Positions 1-5,293 of a stretch of 5,293 nt of DNA are shown here, in pieces; position 1 is the stretch's first letter; each line of letters begins with the position of its first letter. Source of the stretch: a virus (Duplodnaviria > Heunggongvirae > Uroviricota > Caudoviricetes); IMG/VR virus record IMGVR_UViG_2695420658_000009; one strand, written 5' to 3'. The notes beneath the pieces were generated by a model. The model saw only the letters and a program-made list of their open reading frames with translations. It was not told the DNA's origin and ran no database searches. The position numbers and the translations under genes were made by a program.

Positions 1-306
1 GAAGGAGTGTCCGTTAAACTCAGGCTACCTCAATTTGCGCTGGGAAGTGGTGCGCAAGTTGCGTCTAGTGGCGATATTTATGGTTCAGTGTGGGAAAACA
101 ACTGGTTAAGCACATGGCTGCATAATCATGTCGTTCGGGATATTCGTCTTGGCAGCATTGAATATAAAAACGTATGGCGCGACTACGGCTTTGGCGATGC
201 GTCAGGTTATGTTTTAACAGCCGCAATTAACAGCAATGCGGATGATATTGTCGACACTGTTGCCAGAAGGCCAATTCAGAAATTGATTGGGGGAATATGG
301 TACAAC
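1..306 (+). CDS. side tail fibre protein, distal C-terminal region (partial: 5' end upstream of window, last codons lost in N-run)
   Basis: Frame 1 is open from base 1; the GTG at 7 is internal, not a real start. The translation ...SGDIYGSVWENNWLSTWLHNHVVRDIRLG...RRPIQKLIGGIWYN parallels the C-terminus of the minus-strand fibre cassette (...RYVRDVRLG...RPIQKLINGTWYNVSQV*). It is followed by a Tfa chaperone gene, the usual fibre-chaperone order. Confidence 0.6.
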
Positions 307-862
307 NNNNNNNNNNNNNNNNNNNNNNNNNNNNNNNNNNNNNNNNNNNNNNNNNNNNNNNNNNNNNNNNNNNNNNNNNNNNNNNNNNNNNNNNNNNNNN
401 NNNNNNNNNNNNNNNNNNNNNNNNNNNNNNNNNNNNNNNNNNNNNNNNNNNNNNNNNNNNNNNNNNNNNNNNNNNNNNNNNNNNNNNNNNNNNNNNNNNN
501 NNNNNNNNNNNNNNNNNNNNNNNNNNNNNNNNNNNNNNNNNNNNNNNNNNNNNNNNNNNNNNNNNNNNNNNNNNNNNNNNNNNNNNNNNNNNNNNNNNNN
601 NNNNNNNNNNNNNNNNNNNNNNNNNNNNNNNNNNNNNNNNNNNNNNNNNNNNNNNNNNNNNNNNNNNNNNNNNNNNNNNNNNNNNNNNNNNNNNNNNNNN
701 NNNNNNNNNNNNNNNNNNNNNNNNNNNNNNNNNNNNNNNNNNNNNNNNNNNNNNNNNNNNNNNNNNNNNNNNNNNNNNNNNNNNNNNNNNNNNNNNNNNN
801 NNNNNNNNNNNNNNNNNNNNNNNNNNNNNNNNNNNNNNNNNNNNNNNNNNNNNNNNNNNNNN
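307..862. other. masked/unresolved bases (556 N)
   Basis: Run of n in the input. By context it hides the fibre stop codon and most of the plus-strand tfa gene. Confidence 1.
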
Positions 863-915
863 TGGTCAGCCGTGTGGATACGGCAAATCCTGAATGGCCA
901 CAAAAGCCTGAATAA
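863..915 (+). CDS. tfa: tail fibre assembly chaperone (Mu U / Tfa family), C-terminal 17 codons visible; start lies inside the N-run
   Basis: The visible end ...VSRVDTANPEWPQKPE* (TAA 913-915) matches the C-terminal RVD-x-ANPEWP motif I recall for Mu U-type Tfa proteins. It sits downstream of a fibre gene. Confidence 0.6.
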
Positions 916-920
916 AAATT

Positions 921-940
921 AAGGCCCGATAGCGGGCCTT
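921..940. terminator. bidirectional intrinsic terminator between convergent tfa genes
   Basis: Perfect 8-bp stem aaggcccg / cgggcctt with 4-nt loop atag. On the minus strand it is followed by AATTTTTATT (U-tract), on the plus strand by CTCTCATTCT (weaker). It lies exactly between the plus tfa stop (915) and the minus tfa' stop (967). Confidence 0.5.
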
Positions 941-966
941 CTCTCATTCTGGTTGTTCGGGAAACG

Positions 967-1503
967 TTACTGGCAGGCTGGAGGTGTCTGTGGATTCAAN
1001 NNNNNNNNNNNNNNNNNNNNNNNNNNNNNNNNNNNNNNNNNNNNNNNNNNNNNNNNNNNNNNNNNNNNNNNNNNNNNNNNNNNNNNNNNNNNNNNNNNNN
1101 NNNNNNNNNNNNNNNNNNNNNNNNNNNNNNNNNNNNNNNNNNNNNNNNNNNNNNNNNNNNNNNNNNNNNNNNNNNNNNNNNNNNNNNNNNNNNNNNNNNN
1201 NNNNNNNNNNNNNNNNNNNNNNNNNNNNNNNNNNNNNNNNNNNNNNNNNNNNNNNNNNNNNNNNNNNNNNNNNNNNNNNNNNNNNNNNNNNNNNNNNNNN
1301 NNNNNNNNNNNNNNNNNNNNNNNNNNNNNNNNNNNNNNNNNNNNNNNNNNNNNNNNNNNNNNNNNNNNNNNNNNNNNNNNNNNNNNNNNNNNNNNNNNNN
1401 NNNNNNNNNNNNNNNNNNNNNNNNNNNNNNNNNNNNNNNNNNNNNNNNNNNNNNNNNNNNNNNNNNNNNNNNNNNNTGCGACAATGTTTTTTAAATGCTG
1501 CAT
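967..1503 (-). CDS. tfa: tail fibre assembly chaperone, alternative copy (U'/Tfa'), body masked
   Basis: Minus-strand ATG at 1503-1501 gives MQHLKNIVA..., close to the Mu U N-terminus (MMHLKNI...) as I recall it. The ATG overlaps the stop of the upstream fibre cassette (TAATCATG). Bases 1000-1476 are N; the visible C-terminus is ...LNPQTPPACQ*. Confidence 0.5.
   Translation of the reverse strand: MQHLKNIVAXXXXXXXXXXXXXXXXXXXXXXXXXXXXXXXXXXXXXXXXXXXXXXXXXXXXXXXXXXXXXXXXXXXXXXXXXXXXXXXXXXXXXXXXXXXXXXXXXXXXXXXXXXXXXXXXXXXXXXXXXXXXXXXXXXXXXXXXXXXXXXXXXXXXXXXXXXXXXXXLNPQTPPACQ
1000..1476. other. masked/unresolved bases (477 N)
   Basis: Run of n in the input. Confidence 1.
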
Positions 1504-1505
1504 GA

Positions 1506-2432
1506 TTATACCTGCGATACGTTATACCATGTTCCGTTAATTAACTTTTGTATTGGTCTGAATACTGCCGGATCATCACCATCGACTTCACCGATAATAC
1601 CAAGCCCCGTGATTACATGGCCTGATTTTTCATACATCACGCCTTTCTTCATGGTCTAAACAACTCGTGTGCCAAGTCTGACATCTCTCACATAGCGGGA
1701 ATCAAAGTTACCGTAATCCGAGGGATTAACACGTCCCGTAATATTTATGGTTTTATTACTTTGAATGCTTCCGGAGACAAAGCGCATAACATGGACGTTA
1801 TTAGCATAAACATCCAGATTACCATCGCCTTTTTGTTTAAAGCCCGTGTCATTATCACCCAATACAATCGAATTACCGCCAAGAGCACTGGATGTTCCGA
1901 TACCCAGTGCACCATTCAGTTGACCACCAGATAACGGCAGTGCACCAACATCTCCTGCTGAAGGTTTTCTGGTGGTGTAAAATTCGGACCAGTCGGCTTC
2001 AAAACCATAACCATCACGGGCTGAACGATAAAAAATACCGCCATTTTTATAATTAATCCGAAACTGAGCTGCAGGACAACTTCCTTCTCCCATATAAAAA
2101 TGAATAATTAACGTTGATGCACCACTAATAGTTGCGTTATAGGCTCCGCTACTCCAGTTCCATCCAACTGCTTTATCATTCGCAACGGTGCTTCCTGTTT
2201 TCCCTAAGGCAAACGCACCAACATGACTTGCTTTTAATGTGATATCGGAGGAACCATCAAAAGCCACATTGCTTATTTTCCTGGCAGTTTTTAATTTTGC
2301 AGCTGTAGAAGCATTGCCGGATAGTTCACCAGAAAGGCCACCGCTGAATGTTTGTCGATTAGTCCAGGTATTCGCTGTACTGAGTAACGGTATTTTCTCC
2401 CCGCTTGTGCCGAGTTCTCGTAAACCGAGGTT
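1506..2432 (-). pseudogene. alternative tail fibre C-terminal cassette (S'v-like), promoterless and start-less, with an in-frame amber codon at 1656-1658
   Basis: The minus-strand frame is open from the crossover site (codon NLGLRELGTSGEK... begins at 2432) to TAA at 1506-1508, apart from one TAG at 1656-1658. It contains the fibre-typical glycine-rich motif ...GGNSIVLGDNDTGFKQKGDGNLDVYANN.... The 49 codons after the TAG stay in frame and align with the plus-strand fibre (…RPIQKLINGTWYN vs …RPIQKLIGGIWYN). Confidence 0.6.
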
Positions 2433-2440
2433 TTAGATAA
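2415..2440. other. gix/hix/pix-like site-specific recombination (crossover) site, 12-2-12 architecture
   Basis: TTCTCGTAAACC GA GGTTTTAGATAA differs at about 3 of 26 positions from the gix sequence TTCCTGTAAACCGAGGTTTTGGATAA as I recall it. It lies at the junction between the start-less fibre cassette and the invertase gene, where gixR sits relative to gin in Mu. Confidence 0.6.
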
Positions 2441-2494
2441 TGGCGGTTTCTGGCCTGCATGGCATGATTTGTGCTTTTGGACGGGAGATTCAGC

Positions 2495-2821
2495 GTGCTG
2501 ATTGGCTATGTAAGGGTATCAACAAATGACCAGAATACAGACCTGCAACGAAACGCTCTTGTTTGTGCAGGATATGAACAAATATTTGAAGATAAATTAA
2601 GCGGAACAAGGACAGGCCGACCTGGATTAAAACGTGCTTTAAAGCGCCTTCAAAAAGGTGACGCACTGGTTGTCTGAAAACTGGACTGACTGGGGCACTG
2701 TATGCGGCATCTTGTCGTGCTGGTGGTGGAAGCCTAGAAAAAGTATCGGGTGTTGCTGAACCGTGTTGATACATCAACTGCACCTGATATTGAGTGGCCT
2801 ACGAACCCTGTCAGGGAGTAA
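2495..2821 (+). pseudogene. pin: pin/gin-family serine DNA invertase, N-terminal 60 codons intact, then nonsense codons and an in-frame fusion to the 3' end of a tfa gene
   Basis: GTG at 2495 follows a GGGAGA Shine-Dalgarno (2483-2488). Translation VLIGYVRVSTNDQNTDLQRNALVCAGYEQIFEDKLSGTRTGRPGLKRALKRLQKGDALVV* matches the Pin/Gin N-terminus including the catalytic-serine motif YVRVSTNDQ. In-frame continuation is [45 protein letters not shown]. Stops are at 2675, 2687, 2735 and 2819. The last about 30 codons are a Tfa C-terminus (…[24 protein letters not shown]…), not invertase. Confidence 0.7.
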
Positions 2822-2993
2822 TCATTGGGATTATGCCGCAGCACGTCTTAAGCANCTTAGATGGTAAATGTCTCGCCTGTGCTATATTTTGTTTTTCGGT
2901 TAGTTAAATATCGTACGTTCATATTTGAACGTTCTGCCGGAATGCATTATCAATAGAGGTAAAGTCGCAACCCCAAATCGTAAAGGAAACCGT

Positions 2994-3018
2994 AGCACGT
3001 CTTAAGCAAGAACGTGCT
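2994..3018 (-). terminator. possible intrinsic terminator downstream of the methyltransferase gene
   Basis: Inverted repeat agcacgt (2994-3000) / acgtgct (3012-3018) with an 11-nt loop, 11 nt after the methyltransferase stop. On the minus strand it is followed by the U-rich stretch UUUCCUUUACGAUUU. Stem is short and the U-tract is interrupted. Confidence 0.3.
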
Positions 3019-3029
3019 GCGGTTGGATG

Positions 3030-3848
3030 CTATTTTTTCCCTGAAGCGGAAAACATTACTACAGTACCTTGAACCCTGGTTTTAACATTCTCGAAATGCT
3101 CTGAGAGTATATGTGTTAAGCCTTCTTCGGAATCTTTTGTGTTTGAAAAGATGCCTTTCTGATTGTAAATGCGCATCAGTTTTTGACCGAAGCTATTGTG
3201 CACAACTCCATCGCCAAGAATTGTGGCTCCGTATAGAGTTCCATCGTCAGTTAAGGCCTGCGCCGCATTGCGTATTACACAGCTTTTTGTAGATATATTT
3301 CCAGGCAGGCAGTGAAGAAGGTAAAACATGGAAATGGAATCAAATTGACCATGTAACGCCGCGGGATAAGGTTCAAAAACATCATGGCTAATTTTATGTT
3401 TAATTTTTGATTCCCCAGCCCTTGTAGATGCCGCGTTCAGGCTAGCTTCGTTCAAATCCATTAAAGATATCAGACTACTCTCAGGTACGTGAGTAAGGTA
3501 AAACCCAGTTCCAACACCAATATCCAGATGGTTGTTACCTAAATGTTCCAGAAAGTGTGGAAGAAGGTGTTCCTTTGTAGGACATCCCCATGCAAGCCGA
3601 TTTGATACTCCCAAAACCCACCAGTCATAAAGCTTTAGGGTAAGTGGTGTGTAAATTTTAGCCCCATCATCTGTGTTTNNNNNNNNNNNNNNNNNNNNNN
3701 NNNNNNNNNNNNNNNNNNNNNNNNNNNNNNNNNNNNNNNNNNNNNNNNNNNNNNNNNNNNNNNNNNNNNNNNNNNNNNNNNNNNNNNNNNNNNNNNNNNN
3801 GTATGCTTCGATACAGCAGGAGCCGAATGGCTGGAAGACCGTCACCAC
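3030..3848 (-). CDS. class I SAM-dependent methyltransferase (small-molecule/O-MTase-like; no DNA-MTase motifs seen); N-terminal part partly masked
   Basis: ORF of 272 codons with stop TAG at 3030-3032. It has the SAM-binding motif I HLDIGVGTGFYL followed by an acidic strand end (LISLMDLNE) and a later FDSISMFYLLHCLP segment, the canonical Rossmann-fold MTase order. No (D/N/S)PP(Y/F/W) or PCQ motif is present. The start is uncertain: GTG at 3846-3848 with no clear SD, and bases 3679-3800 are N. Confidence 0.65.
   Translation of the reverse strand: MVTVFQPFGSCCIEAYXXXXXXXXXXXXXXXXXXXXXXXXXXXXXXXXXXXXXXXXXNTDDGAKIYTPLTLKLYDWWVLGVSNRLAWGCPTKEHLLPHFLEHLGNNHLDIGVGTGFYLTHVPESSLISLMDLNEASLNAASTRAGESKIKHKISHDVFEPYPAALHGQFDSISMFYLLHCLPGNISTKSCVIRNAAQALTDDGTLYGATILGDGVVHNSFGQKLMRIYNQKGIFSNTKDSEEGLTHILSEHFENVKTRVQGTVVMFSASGKK
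3679..3800. other. masked/unresolved bases (122 N) inside the methyltransferase 5' region
   Basis: Run of n in the input. Confidence 1.
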
Positions 3849-3879
3849 ACAGTTCTACATCCAGGAATTTAGTGAGTAT

Positions 3880-4230
3880 ANNNNNNNNNNNNNNNNNNNN
3901 NNNNNNNNNNNNNNNNNNNNNNNNNNNNNNNNNNNNNNNNNNNNNNNNNNNNNNNNNNNNNNNNNNNNNNNNNNNNNNNNNNNNNNNNNNNNNNNNNNNN
4001 NNNNNNNNNNNNNNNNNNNNNNNNNNNNNNNNNNNNNNNNNNNNNNNNNNNNNNNNNNNNNNNNNNNNNNNNNNNNNNNNNNNNNNNNNNNNNNNNNNNN
4101 NNNNNNNNNNNNNNNNNNNNNNNNNNNNNNNNNNNNNNNNNNNNNNNNNNNNNNNNNNNNNNNNNNNNNNNNNNNNNNNNNNNNNNNNNNNNNNNNNNNN
4201 NNNNNNNNNNNNNNNNNNNNNNNNNNNNNN
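3880..4230. other. masked/unresolved bases (351 N) between the methyltransferase and the Rha-proximal ORF
   Basis: Run of n in the input. All three listed ORFs crossing it are open only because N cannot encode a stop. Confidence 1.
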
Positions 4231-4410
4231 CATGGTTCAATGGTCCGTCTGCCCCCTGTGGTGATGTCAGCAAAATCAGCCACTGCGCGAACCACAATAG
4301 CCCGGGAAGATGCTGAAGATCACCAGGTAAAGCTGTCAGCGCAGAAACTGGAAGAACTGCTCGCATCAATGGTTAAGGATGAGGTTGATCGCAATGATGG
4401 GATTTATTGA
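4231..4410 (+). CDS. hypothetical protein, C-terminal part (start hidden in N-run), ending at TGA 4408-4410; possibly an interrupted longer gene
   Basis: Plus frame 1 is open across all visible sequence with E. coli-like codon choice: ...MSAKSATARTTIAREDAEDHQVKLSAQKLEELLASMVKDEVDRNDGIY*. The same frame stays open for 29 more codons after the TGA, to TAA at 4498-4500. Minus-strand frames in 4296-4536 are broken by stops. Confidence 0.4.
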   Translation, partial: HGSMVRLPPVVMSAKSATARTTIAREDAEDHQVKLSAQKLEELLASMVKDEVDRNDGIY

Positions 4411-4536
4411 CGTCAGCGAGAGCAGAAGGAAGAACTGAATAACCTGAATGATTTACGCTCAATCAGAGCGATGGCGATTAGCGGCAATCACGCTCGATAA
4501 AATTAACCTCGGTGATCATCCGGGGTTTTGCATTCA

Positions 4537-5094
4537 TTAAAACCGCATCAACCTTTCCACCAATTGTTCTTTACGGGCAACGATCCACCCATGTTGCTCC
4601 AGATAAAATTTAAACCGTTCCAGAGTGCATACCATCGCATCGGCGGGGACTTTTTCTGTGAACTCGACCTGACCGTGTTTATCGAAGTGGATCAGTAATG
4701 CGCATCCATTATTTGGGGCGGGGGAGTTTTGTGCTGCAGGAGGACGTTTGTGGAGTTCTTCTTCCATTGCGTTAAATTTTTCAATGTAAGCTTCTTTTAG
4801 TCTGGCTGCTTTTTTGCCAGTAAATCCCATTACGAGGAACATGAAGCCGTCTTTTGTGATCAGGTAGCATCGTGATTCACGTTCTGCGCCGTTGCCAATT
4901 TCGACAGTCTGAACATCGGCCGAAAAGTTGGCTGATGTAAATTCGGGAGAGCAGTCGAGTGTGTCAATCTTAGCTAAAACGTGTTTATGTTGTTTATCGA
5001 AGTAGTCGGCAACAGCTTGAGAGGTGGTAACCAGGCGACCATCTTTGAAAAAGACTTTTGGTGACTCGTTAGAAAAAGTTATAGCTGTATTCAT
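4537..5094 (-). CDS. rha: Rha-family phage regulatory protein (antirepressor-like, Phage_pRha domain)
   Basis: ATG at 5094-5092 is preceded by GGAG with a 9-nt spacer. Translation MNTAITFSNESPKVFFKDGRLVTTSQAVADYFDKQHKHVLAKIDTL...YLITKDGFMFLVMGFTGKKAARLKEAYIEKFNAMEEEL... carries the Rha signature (LxMGFTGKKAxxxKxxYIxxFNxME). Stop TAA at 4537-4539. The TTG at 5109 in the ORF track is unlikely to be the start. Confidence 0.8.
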   Translation of the reverse strand: MNTAITFSNESPKVFFKDGRLVTTSQAVADYFDKQHKHVLAKIDTLDCSPEFTSANFSADVQTVEIGNGAERESRCYLITKDGFMFLVMGFTGKKAARLKEAYIEKFNAMEEELHKRPPAAQNSPAPNNGCALLIHFDKHGQVEFTEKVPADAMVCTLERFKFYLEQHGWIVARKEQLVERLMRF

Positions 5095-5104
5095 ATGTGA
5101 TGAC

Positions 5105-5118
5105 TCCAATTAATTGGA
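5105..5118. promoter_or_regulatory. perfect 14-bp palindrome TCCAATTAATTGGA overlapping the rha ribosome-binding site
   Basis: Exact dyad symmetry. The GGA of the rha Shine-Dalgarno (minus strand) is the last three bases of the palindrome. Candidate operator or SD-sequestering hairpin. Confidence 0.3.
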
Positions 5119-5121
5119 TGA

Positions 5122-5155
5122 TCACCACCTCTGACGCCAATCAGGGAGGTGGTGA
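5122..5155. promoter_or_regulatory. inverted repeat with 10-bp perfect arms in the rha leader/upstream region
   Basis: tcaccacctc (5122-5131) and gaggtggtga (5146-5155) are exact reverse complements separated by 14 nt; an inner tga/tca pair extends the stem. Confidence 0.3.
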
Positions 5156-5254
5156 GACGTACAGGGTTGGCGTAACCGGTCATCACAAAACCCGGCGCGG
5201 ATTTCTCCGCCCCTGCACGCCCCACCATAATGCGAATGTGGCAATGCTTAACGC

Positions 5255-5274
5255 AAAAAAAACCGCAAACGCGG
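5255..5274 (-). terminator. possible intrinsic terminator reading leftward (minus strand) upstream of rha
   Basis: On the minus strand: CCGC-GTTT-GCGG hairpin (plus coordinates 5263-5274) followed immediately by TTTTTTTT (plus 5255-5262). The stem is only 4 bp, so weak. Confidence 0.3.
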
Positions 5275-5293
5275 CTATGCGTTGTGATGTTAT

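What the first reader, a model, noticed from the sequence alone, without database searches (positions are those of the whole stretch)
1..2440. Mu G-segment-like invertible tail-fibre host-range switch
Two fibre C-terminal cassettes, each followed by its own Tfa chaperone, are arranged convergently around a shared hairpin terminator (plus: 1-915; minus: 2432-967). The minus-strand cassette has no start codon and its frame runs open right up to the core of a gix-like site next to an invertase gene. This is the architecture of the Mu G, P1 C and e14 P segments, where inversion swaps which variable C-terminus is fused to a constant fibre N-terminus. The two cassettes share only their extreme C-termini and encode different receptor-binding regions.
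Basis: partly seen in the sequence, partly recalled or inferred. Interest (0 to 1): 0.5.

Follow-up and report, generated by a model that had tools for sequence, protein, structure and literature searches.

The report
Dead remnant of tail-fibre inversion switch
This is a broken leftover of a well-known phage "flip-switch" that swaps tail-fibre tips (the Mu G / Shigella B-pinB type), sitting in a decayed Shigella sonnei-type prophage; here it has lost one recombination site, its fibre gene and its invertase, so it is ordinary and cannot flip.

Summary
The 26-bp site at 2415-2440 is 24/26 identical to bixR of the Shigella B-pinB system and 23/26 to Mu gix. The two Tfa genes are 82% and 85% identical to Mu U and U'. 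The invertase stub matches Gin residues 1-60 at 57/60.

In this window the switch is a fossil:
- Bases 1-32 are the terminal repeat of IS600. It cuts the plus-strand fibre to its last ~96 codons. In loci 100% identical to the window, lysis genes lie beyond the IS. There is no fibre gene there and no partner site.
- The minus-strand cassette carries a CAG>TAG amber at 1656-1658.
- The invertase gene has TGG>TGA at codon 61, further stops, and ends near codon 99.

Its prediction does hold in the sister lineage S. sonnei 53G, where an exact bixL sits inside an intact 918-aa fibre gene about 570-600 nt left of window position 1. Near-identical isolates carry the segment in both orientations despite the dead invertase, which implies flipping in trans where both sites survive. 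This is a known system and of low interest. Both tfa genes lie mostly in N-runs in my copy.

The parts
1..32 (-). Terminal inverted repeat (right end) of IS600. This is the truncation point of the fibre gene and probably the reason the contig starts here.
   Evidence: Reverse complement TGAGGTAGCCTGAGTTTAACGGACACTCCTTC. In L004 it continues into IS600 orfA and orfB. E. coli records annotate this stretch as 'IS3-like element IS600 family transposase', ending at this base. 53G-type loci match the window only from base 33.
33..306 (+). 3' stump of fibre cassette X, about the last 96 codons of the Stf variable part. It runs into the N-run; by homology the stop would be at about 319-321.
   Evidence: 100% identical to L010 (S. 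sonnei 53G) 12144-11871, inside the 918-aa Stf. 98.9% identical to the S gene end of the E24377A Mu-like prophage.
307..915 (+). tfaX, a Mu U-like tail-fibre assembly gene. Only the last 53 nt (863-915) are readable; the rest is N.
   Evidence: The visible end reads ...VSRVDTANPEWPQKPE*. The full gene in identical locus L004 4867-5394 is Caudo_TAP, E=7.9e-37. 82% identical to Mu U.
921..940 (.). Hairpin AAGGCCCG-ATAG-CGGGCCTT between the convergent tfa genes.
   Evidence: Fold -19.7 kcal/mol, z=-2.8. The terminator scan finds it with a T-run on the window's minus strand only.
944..1503 (-). tfaA, a Mu U'-like tail-fibre assembly gene. Only 944-999 and 1477-1503 are readable.
   Evidence: ATG at 1503 (MQHLKNIVA...). 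Homologue L004 4305-4838 is Caudo_TAP, E=4.8e-34. 85% identical to Mu U'. The stop is placed at 944-946 by register with L004.
1506..2426 (-). Silent fibre cassette A, the variable C-terminal part. It has no start codon and is broken by an amber codon.
   Evidence: Translation. Pfam gp37_C, E=1.4e-7. 84% identical over 93 aa to the Mu S' variable part. 98.6% identical to the expressed cassette of E. coli NCTC86.
1656..1658 (-). In-frame amber (CAG>TAG), 50 codons before the natural stop of cassette A.
   Evidence: Alignment with NCTC86. The same truncated 203-aa ORF occurs in S. sonnei assemblies.
2415..2440 (+). Din-family crossover site (bixR-like). Inner half 2415-2426, core GA 2427-2428, outer half 2429-2440. 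It is the only such site in this lineage.
   Evidence: Unique in the window. 24/26 identical to bixR and 23/26 to gix. No second site in L004 or L007, even at up to 6 mismatches.
2495..2740 (+). pin/gin pseudogene. Codons 1-60 are intact, with TGA at 2675-2677. Further stops follow and homology ends near Gin residue 99. It is then fused to a tfa 3' fragment.
   Evidence: 57/60 identical to Gin. tblastn covers Gin 1-99 with 3 stops in every relative. EC958 and NCTC86 annotate it as 'recombinase family protein, incomplete'.

Best explanation
The window holds the right-hand two-thirds of a Din-family (Gin/Pin/PinB) invertible tail-fibre segment. It belongs to a defective lambdoid prophage at the ompW-trp locus of a Shigella sonnei-type genome.

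In the ancestral phage, a serine invertase recombined two inverted 26-bp sites. One site lay inside the fibre gene stf and one lay next to the invertase gene. Each inversion fused the constant Stf N-terminus (~615 aa) in frame to cassette X (with TfaX) or to cassette A (with TfaA), changing receptor specificity.

In this lineage the device is dead for four reasons:
1. The invertase gene is a pseudogene. This lesion is old and is shared with E. coli ST131 and NCTC86.
2. Cassette A has an amber codon.
3. An IS600-associated deletion removed everything from the lysis genes to codon ~822 of stf. That includes the left site, the constant fibre part and, by inference from gene order, the intervening head and tail genes.
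4. Only one site remains, so no inversion is possible even with an invertase supplied in trans.

Shown here: the anatomy, the lesions, the missing partner, and site-bounded inversions in relatives. Inferred: the receptor switching, the Fis-enhancer function of the conserved gin 5' region, and deletion as the mechanism of loss.
For: - Site identity.
- Gene order and identities to Mu U, U', S' and Gin.
- Intact sister locus in S. sonnei 53G: a 918-aa Stf, with an exact bixL at codons 615-623 and 2,890 nt between the arms.
- Frame continuity across the core: the constant part reads ...IEYL|GLQE, and after a switch it would read ...IEYL|GLRELGTS.
- Half-site bookkeeping: outer halves stay with stfN (GGTATTCGATAA) or with pin (GGTTTTAGATAA), and inner halves travel with the cassette. 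NCTC86's left site is exactly the predicted recombinant joint.
- Clean inversions with breakpoints inside the 26-bp sites between isolates 99.4-99.96% identical in the aligned blocks: EC958 vs L026 and L039, and 53G vs L035.
- IS600 junction and upstream content.
- No target-site duplication: AAC on one side and ATT on the other.
- pin lesions.
- Amber codon.
Against: - The window's own genome is not available to me. The upstream context is read from loci that are 100% identical over the unmasked bases (L004, L007-L009, L011, L013), not from the window's assembly.
- About 1 kb of the 2.44-kb finding is N in my copy.
- I could not scan whole type-1 genomes to show that the left half of the segment is absent rather than moved elsewhere.
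- Receptor specificity of the cassettes was never tested.
Confidence: 0.9

Rival explanations
1. It is a working Mu G-like host-range switch. The left site and the constant fibre part lie just upstream of the window.
For: The architecture and the site are genuine. In S. sonnei 53G-type genomes the left site and a complete 918-aa Stf are present. Relatives flip despite the dead invertase.
Against: - Window 1-32 is the IS600 end.
- All five long assemblies that share this exact junction have non-fibre DNA beyond the IS and no second site.
- The invertase carries 3 stops and lacks its C-terminal half.
- Cassette A carries an amber codon.
- Head and tail genes are absent between the lysis genes and the fibre stump.
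Confidence: 0.03
2. The orphan site is still biologically active. With its conserved gin 5' region (the presumed Fis enhancer) it serves as a substrate for invertases of co-resident or incoming phages. It would pair with dix sites in other prophages and cause larger chromosomal inversions or deletions.
For: - Din sites and invertases cross-react. This rests on my recollection of Tominaga 1991 (not held); PMC3241671 only tabulates the family's common 26-bp consensus.
- The gin 5' 180 nt are ~97% identical to Mu.
- L035 shows an intact invertase with its own bixR-type site abutting this prophage's methyltransferase, 1 kb from the dead pin. This looks like an inter-element joint.
- Segments flip in trans in relatives.
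Against: No rearrangement ending at window 2427/2428 was seen in any type-1 locus. All five long type-1 assemblies read (L007-L009, L011, L013) share the same A|pin joint (for L007). Efficient Din recombination needs two sites and the enhancer in cis on a supercoiled domain, and long-range events are rare.
Confidence: 0.05
3. It is not a switch remnant at all. Two unrelated fibre/tfa modules from different prophages were brought together by mosaic recombination, and the 26-bp match is incidental.
For: The cassettes are mosaic. X resembles a Mu-like prophage S gene and A resembles P2/L-413C H and Mu S'. NCTC86 has 781-nt inverted arms, so homologous exchange also occurs.
Against: - The site is 24/26 identical to bixR and sits exactly at the frame-preserving position.
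- The U/U' order matches Mu.
- Sister genomes have the partner site.
- Inversion breakpoints map inside the 26-bp sites.
Confidence: 0.02

Closest known systems
Invertible B segment-pinB of Shigella (GenBank D00660; Tominaga, Ikemizu & Enomoto 1991, J Bacteriol 173:4079; sites as tabulated in PMC3241671)
   Same: - The outer half of the window's site and the core GA are identical to bixR, 24/26 overall.
- The left site of the sister lineage 53G is bixL exactly.
- It is a G-like segment joined to a constant region unlike Mu S. Here that region is a lambda Stf-type N-terminus (Pfam phage_tail_N).
- The host is Shigella.
   Different: - pinB was isolated as an active recombinase (from my memory of the abstract; the paper is not held). 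Here the invertase is a pseudogene.
- The inner half-site reads TTCTCG rather than TTCCTG.
- The left site and the constant region are deleted.
- I could not align to D00660 itself.
Phage Mu G segment-gin (NC_000929)
   Same: - Gene order S-U / U'-S' / gin, with convergent cassettes.
- 26-bp sites 23/26 identical.
- TfaX 82% identical to U and TfaA 85% to U'. Cassette A is 84% identical over 93 aa to S'. The Gin N-terminus matches at 57/60.
- Segment size is ~2.95 kb in 53G against 3.06 kb in Mu.
   Different: - The carrier is a lambdoid prophage with J, Lom and a 918-aa Stf, not a Mu-type myovirus.
- The constant part is unrelated to Mu Sc apart from short stretches.
- It is non-functional here.
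e14 P segment-pin and P1 C segment-cin
   Same: They share the Din-family logic: alternative fibre C-termini with their own tfa genes, and an adjacent serine invertase. e14 is likewise a defective lambdoid element.
   Different: The pix and cix sites have an AA core and different half-sites (table). The window's site is of the gix/bix (GA core) type. These systems retain an active invertase.

Membership tests
Din-family invertible tail-fibre segment (Mu G-gin / Shigella B-pinB type) | Two 26-bp dix-type crossover sites in inverted orientation bracketing the segment | tested here: not met
   Only one site is present (2415-2440). No second site was found in the window. None was found in ~5 kb (L004) or ~10 kb (L007) upstream in identical loci, at up to 3 mismatches or up to 6. 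The feature is met in the sister lineage 53G (bixL at L010 12744-12769).
Din-family invertible tail-fibre segment (Mu G-gin / Shigella B-pinB type) | Site sequence fits the Din consensus with the central dinucleotide of the G/B subgroup (GA) | tested here: met
   TTCTCGTAAACC GA GGTTTTAGATAA. It is 24/26 identical to bixR and 23/26 to gixR.
Din-family invertible tail-fibre segment (Mu G-gin / Shigella B-pinB type) | Adjacent intact serine invertase (catalytic N-domain plus C-terminal HTH) | tested here: not met
   Only Gin residues 1-99 are alignable, and they contain 3 stops. The first is TGG>TGA at codon 61. The C-terminal half is replaced by a tfa fragment.
Din-family invertible tail-fibre segment (Mu G-gin / Shigella B-pinB type) | Two alternative fibre C-terminal cassettes, each with its own tfa gene, arranged convergently | tested here: inconclusive
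   The layout is present. However, cassette X is cut to 96 codons by IS600, cassette A has an amber codon, and both tfa genes are mostly N in the window and are read from identical loci.
Din-family invertible tail-fibre segment (Mu G-gin / Shigella B-pinB type) | Constant fibre N-terminus with promoter outside the segment, joined in frame across the site core | tested here: not met
   It is absent from this lineage, where IS600 and then lysis genes lie upstream. In 53G the 918-aa Stf crosses bixL in frame, and cassette A would also join in frame.
Din-family invertible tail-fibre segment (Mu G-gin / Shigella B-pinB type) | Fis-dependent recombinational enhancer in cis, within the 5' part of the invertase gene in Mu and Hin | not tested
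   I tested only sequence conservation. Window 2495-2677 is ~97% identical to the Mu gin 5' coding region. The enhancer's position is from memory (Kahmann et al. 1985), and Fis binding was not assessed.
Din-family invertible tail-fibre segment (Mu G-gin / Shigella B-pinB type) | Segment found in both orientations | tested here: inconclusive
   It cannot be assessed for the window's lineage, where all type-1 loci share one orientation. In relatives with two sites, clean site-bounded inversions are seen: EC958 vs L026 and L039, and 53G vs L035.

The most novel reading that the evidence does not exclude
Across E. coli and Shigella, this prophage's fibre segment keeps flipping long after its own invertase died, driven in trans by invertases of other resident prophages. 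The orphan bix site plus enhancer left in the IS600-truncated S. sonnei lineage might still be cut and joined to dix sites elsewhere, making it a latent hotspot for chromosomal rearrangement.
Probability: 0.06. Interest if true: 0.35.

Novelty: already known. Interest (0 to 1): 0.12.

Why it matters
It matters little in itself. It is one more decayed prophage module in a Shigella-type genome, and the switch family has been known since the 1980s and 1990s.

The useful points are practical:
- Annotators should not read this locus as a live host-range switch.
- The IS600 junction explains the contig end.
- The comparison set shows, from sequence alone, that Din-type segments continue to invert in trans after their own invertase is lost. 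The half-site polymorphisms pin the crossover to the 12 bp around the core.

Tried and rejected
- An exact 50-mer from the window start was scanned against genome contigs and gave no match. The same pattern in viral contigs gave L004-L006.
- The complete E. coli genomes contain no record with the window's full arrangement. The best hits cover only 1672-5293, consistent with a Shigella source that is not in that collection.
- NCTC86 first looked like a simple inverted version of the window. Its two cassettes share 781-nt inverted arms and its second cassette differs from X. I therefore did not use it as proof of site-specific inversion, only for the recombinant half-site joint.
- L029 has stfN on both sides of the segment. 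That could reflect mixed orientations in the sample or a misassembly, so I did not rely on it.
- Tominaga 1991 (PMC208056) is not held, so statements about pinB activity rest on my memory of the abstract.
- I did not use the large protein searches, structure prediction or fold search. Sequence identities of 82-95% to Mu proteins made them unnecessary.
Full report
**What is in the window**

My copy of the window has four runs of N: 307-862, 1000-1476, 3680-3800 and 3881-4230. About 1.03 kb of the 2.44-kb finding is therefore unreadable, including most of both tfa genes.

The readable parts show the following:
- a plus-strand fibre C-terminal frame (1-306);
- the last 17 codons of a Tfa, ending ...EWPQKPE* at 915;
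- a GC-rich hairpin at 921-940;
- the two ends of a minus-strand Tfa (ATG at 1503);
- a minus-strand fibre C-terminal frame, open from 2432 and with no start codon before 2267;
- a resolvase-type gene starting at GTG 2495.

The hairpin folds at -19.7 kcal/mol (z=-2.8). It has a T-run only on the window's minus strand.

**Where it comes from**

Window 1672-5293 matches, at about 99%, a lambdoid prophage next to ompW and the trp operon in E. coli ST131 (EC958) and NCTC86. No complete E. coli genome has the whole arrangement.

Three IMG/VR loci (L004-L006) are 100% identical to the window over 1-306, 863-999 and 1477-2854. L004 is also 100% identical over 3801-3880 and 4231-5293.

An exact-protein look-up used the 203-aa ORF that ends at the window's amber codon. 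It returned chromosomes including HE616528.1, which is Shigella sonnei 53G (PMC5447701). The window is therefore of the S. sonnei type.

In all these loci the stretches that correspond to the N-runs are shorter than the N-runs, by 65, 26, 11 and 90 nt. Coordinates inside the N-runs are not in register. By register with L004, tfaA stops at 944-946.

**It is homologous to the Mu G / Shigella B switch**

*The site*
- TTCTCGTAAACCGAGGTTTTAGATAA occurs once in the window, at 2415-2440, with 0 expected by chance.
- At the annotated G-segment boundaries of phage Mu, both gix sites read TTCCTGTAAACCGAGGTTTTGGATAA, which is 23/26 identical.
- In the published table of Din-family sites, bixR of the PinB system is TTCCTGTAAACC GA GGTTTTAGATAA. 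That is 24/26 identical, with the core and outer half the same. bixL is TTCCTGTAAACC GA GGTATTCGATAA (PMC3241671).

*The genes*
- In the identical locus L004, both Tfa genes are Caudo_TAP (E=8e-37 and 5e-34).
- TfaX is 82% identical to Mu U, and TfaA is 85% identical to Mu U'.
- Cassette A is 84% identical over 93 aa to the Mu S' variable part.
- The invertase stub is 57/60 identical to Gin residues 1-60.
- The gin 5' 180 nt are about 97% identical to Mu at the DNA level.

In S. sonnei 53G (L010), and likewise in L012 and L014, the plus-strand fibre is a complete 918-aa Stf with a lambda-type N-terminal domain. It is preceded by Lom and J.

An exact bixL lies in inverted orientation at L010 12744-12769. 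That is codons 615-623 of Stf, with 2,890 nt between the arms. In window terms it would sit about 570-600 nt left of position 1.

The reading frame works as required. The constant part reads ...ATC GAA TAC C|TC| GGT TTA CAG (IEYLGLQ). The silent cassette reads ...C|TC| GGT TTA CGA GAA CTC (LGLREL). Exchange at the core would therefore fuse cassette A in frame. The TAA at 2433-2435 lies in the outer half-site and would stay behind.

**The window's own lineage is a relic**

*1. IS600 cuts the plus-strand fibre.*
- Window 1-32 is not fibre sequence. It is the terminal inverted repeat of IS600.
- In L004 it continues into IS600 orfA and orfB. E. coli records annotate the stretch as 'IS3-like element IS600 family transposase', ending at this base.
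- 53G-type loci match the window only from base 33. Type-1 loci (L004, L007-L009, L011, L013) match from base 1.
- Beyond the IS there is no fibre gene. Instead there are DUF1327, a P21-type holin, a NanS-p-like esterase, a second IS600, a DNA methylase and an antiterminator. These are the late-control and lysis region of the same prophage.
- The flanks are AAC on one side and ATT on the other, so there is no 3-bp target duplication. I infer an IS600-associated deletion running from the lysis genes to about codon 822 of stf. It would have removed the head and tail genes, the constant fibre part and the left site.
- No second site exists in L004 or L007, even at up to 6 mismatches.

*2. Cassette A has an in-frame amber.*
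- It is CAG>TAG at 1656-1658 relative to NCTC86, 50 codons before the natural stop.
- It is present in both S. sonnei locus types.

*3. The invertase is a pseudogene.*
- It has TGG>TGA at 2675-2677 (codon 61) and two further stops.
- Homology ends near Gin residue 99, where it is fused to a tfa 3' fragment.
- The same lesion is in every relative of this prophage that I examined: S. sonnei, EC958, NCTC86, L026, L032 and L039. It is therefore old.

**Evidence that the segment really inverted, and still does where two sites survive**

*Half-sites.* The outer half-sites are fixed to their flanks, GGTATTCGATAA with stfN and GGTTTTAGATAA with pin. The inner halves travel with the cassettes, TTCTCG with A and TTCCTG with X or C. 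NCTC86's left site, TTCTCGTAAACCGAGGTATTCGATAA, is exactly the recombinant joint predicted if cassette A is flipped into the expression position. This limits the exchange to the 12 bp between the polymorphic positions.

*Inversions in relatives.*
- EC958 against L026 and L039 shows a clean 3,119-nt inversion with collinear flanks. Identity across the aligned blocks is 98.5-100%, and the breakpoints lie inside the sites.
- 53G against L035 shows the same for the amber-marked allele, a 2,950-nt inversion at 99.8% identity.
- All of these genomes carry the dead invertase.

The inversions are therefore much younger than the invertase lesion, which implies action in trans. L035 has an intact 194-aa invertase only 1 kb away. 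Cross-complementation among Din invertases is established knowledge, which I take from memory of Tominaga 1991 and Plasterk et al. None of this can happen in the window's lineage, because it has a single site.

**Comparison and verdict**

The closest known systems are the B segment-pinB of Shigella and Mu G-gin.

| Defining feature | Result in this window |
|---|---|
| Two inverted sites | Fails |
| Intact invertase | Fails |
| Constant fibre part | Fails |
| Site sequence | Passes |
| Cassette layout | Inconclusive: layout present, but both cassettes damaged |

It is best described as a degraded copy of a known system. Novelty is 'already known' and interest is low.

**Limits**

- The upstream context comes from identical loci, not from the window's own assembly.
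- Whole genomes could not be scanned for a relocated left half.
- GenBank D00660 could not be aligned.
- Receptor specificity and enhancer function are inferred.

Noticed in passing
window 2842-3021 (+), especially 2855-2989: There is a full-length match to Rfam RF02799 CssrB, a Shigella chromosomal sRNA (191.9 bits, E=1e-42). The central 134 nt (2856-2989) are preceded by a single 'n' and flanked by the direct repeat GCACGTCTTAAGCA. They are absent from every otherwise identical S. sonnei locus and from EC958 and NCTC86. In EIEC strain CFSAN029787 the same 134 nt lie between the 5' end of ipaHe and the same class I SAM methyltransferase. This is either a real indel polymorphism or an assembly artefact.
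   Followed up: partly
window 5145-5232 (-): There is a match to Rfam RF01695, the C4 antisense RNA of the P1/P7-type immunity region (75.9 bits, above the gathering score). It lies just upstream of the ash and Rha genes (Rha 4537-5094, Pfam Phage_pRha).
   Followed up: no
window 2740-2823, 3801-3880, 4231-4410: The dead invertase gene is fused to a 3' fragment of another tail-fibre assembly gene (...VDTSTAPDIEWPTNPVRE*). Further tfa and DUF4376 fragments follow around the methyltransferase. These are leftovers of at least one more fibre module downstream of the switch, and the same scars are annotated in EC958.
   Followed up: partly
window N-runs 307-862, 1000-1476, 3680-3800, 3881-4230: Each N-run is longer than the corresponding sequence in the loci that are 100% identical on both sides, by 65, 26, 11 and 90 nt. 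They behave like gap-size estimates or padding rather than length-preserving masks. ORF coordinates that cross them, such as 967..1503, are unreliable.
   Followed up: yes
L035 4539-5206 and 6143-6400: One IMG/VR contig has an intact 194-aa Din invertase with its own bixR-type site. It follows a tape-measure gene and a 164-aa ORF and lies directly against this prophage's methyltransferase, 1 kb from the dead pin. In this contig the amber-marked segment is in the flipped orientation. It may be a joint between two elements made by site-specific recombination.
   Followed up: partly
L029 1-3838: This contig has the Stf constant region on both sides of the segment in inverted orientation, with an A|stfN joint and an X|stfN joint. 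It is either a misassembly caused by both orientations being present in the sequenced culture or a real inverted duplication.
   Followed up: no
L003 (E. coli NCTC86) 3562-4342 and 5779-6559: The two fibre cassettes share 781-nt inverted arms at 99% identity, starting at the crossover sites. In that strain RecA-type recombination could also invert the inner part, and gene conversion between cassettes has evidently occurred.
   Followed up: partly
L010 15431-18609 (S. sonnei 53G): Even in the lineage with an intact Stf, the tail-tip gene J is called as two ORFs (513 and 547 aa). The prophage is probably defective there too.
   Followed up: no
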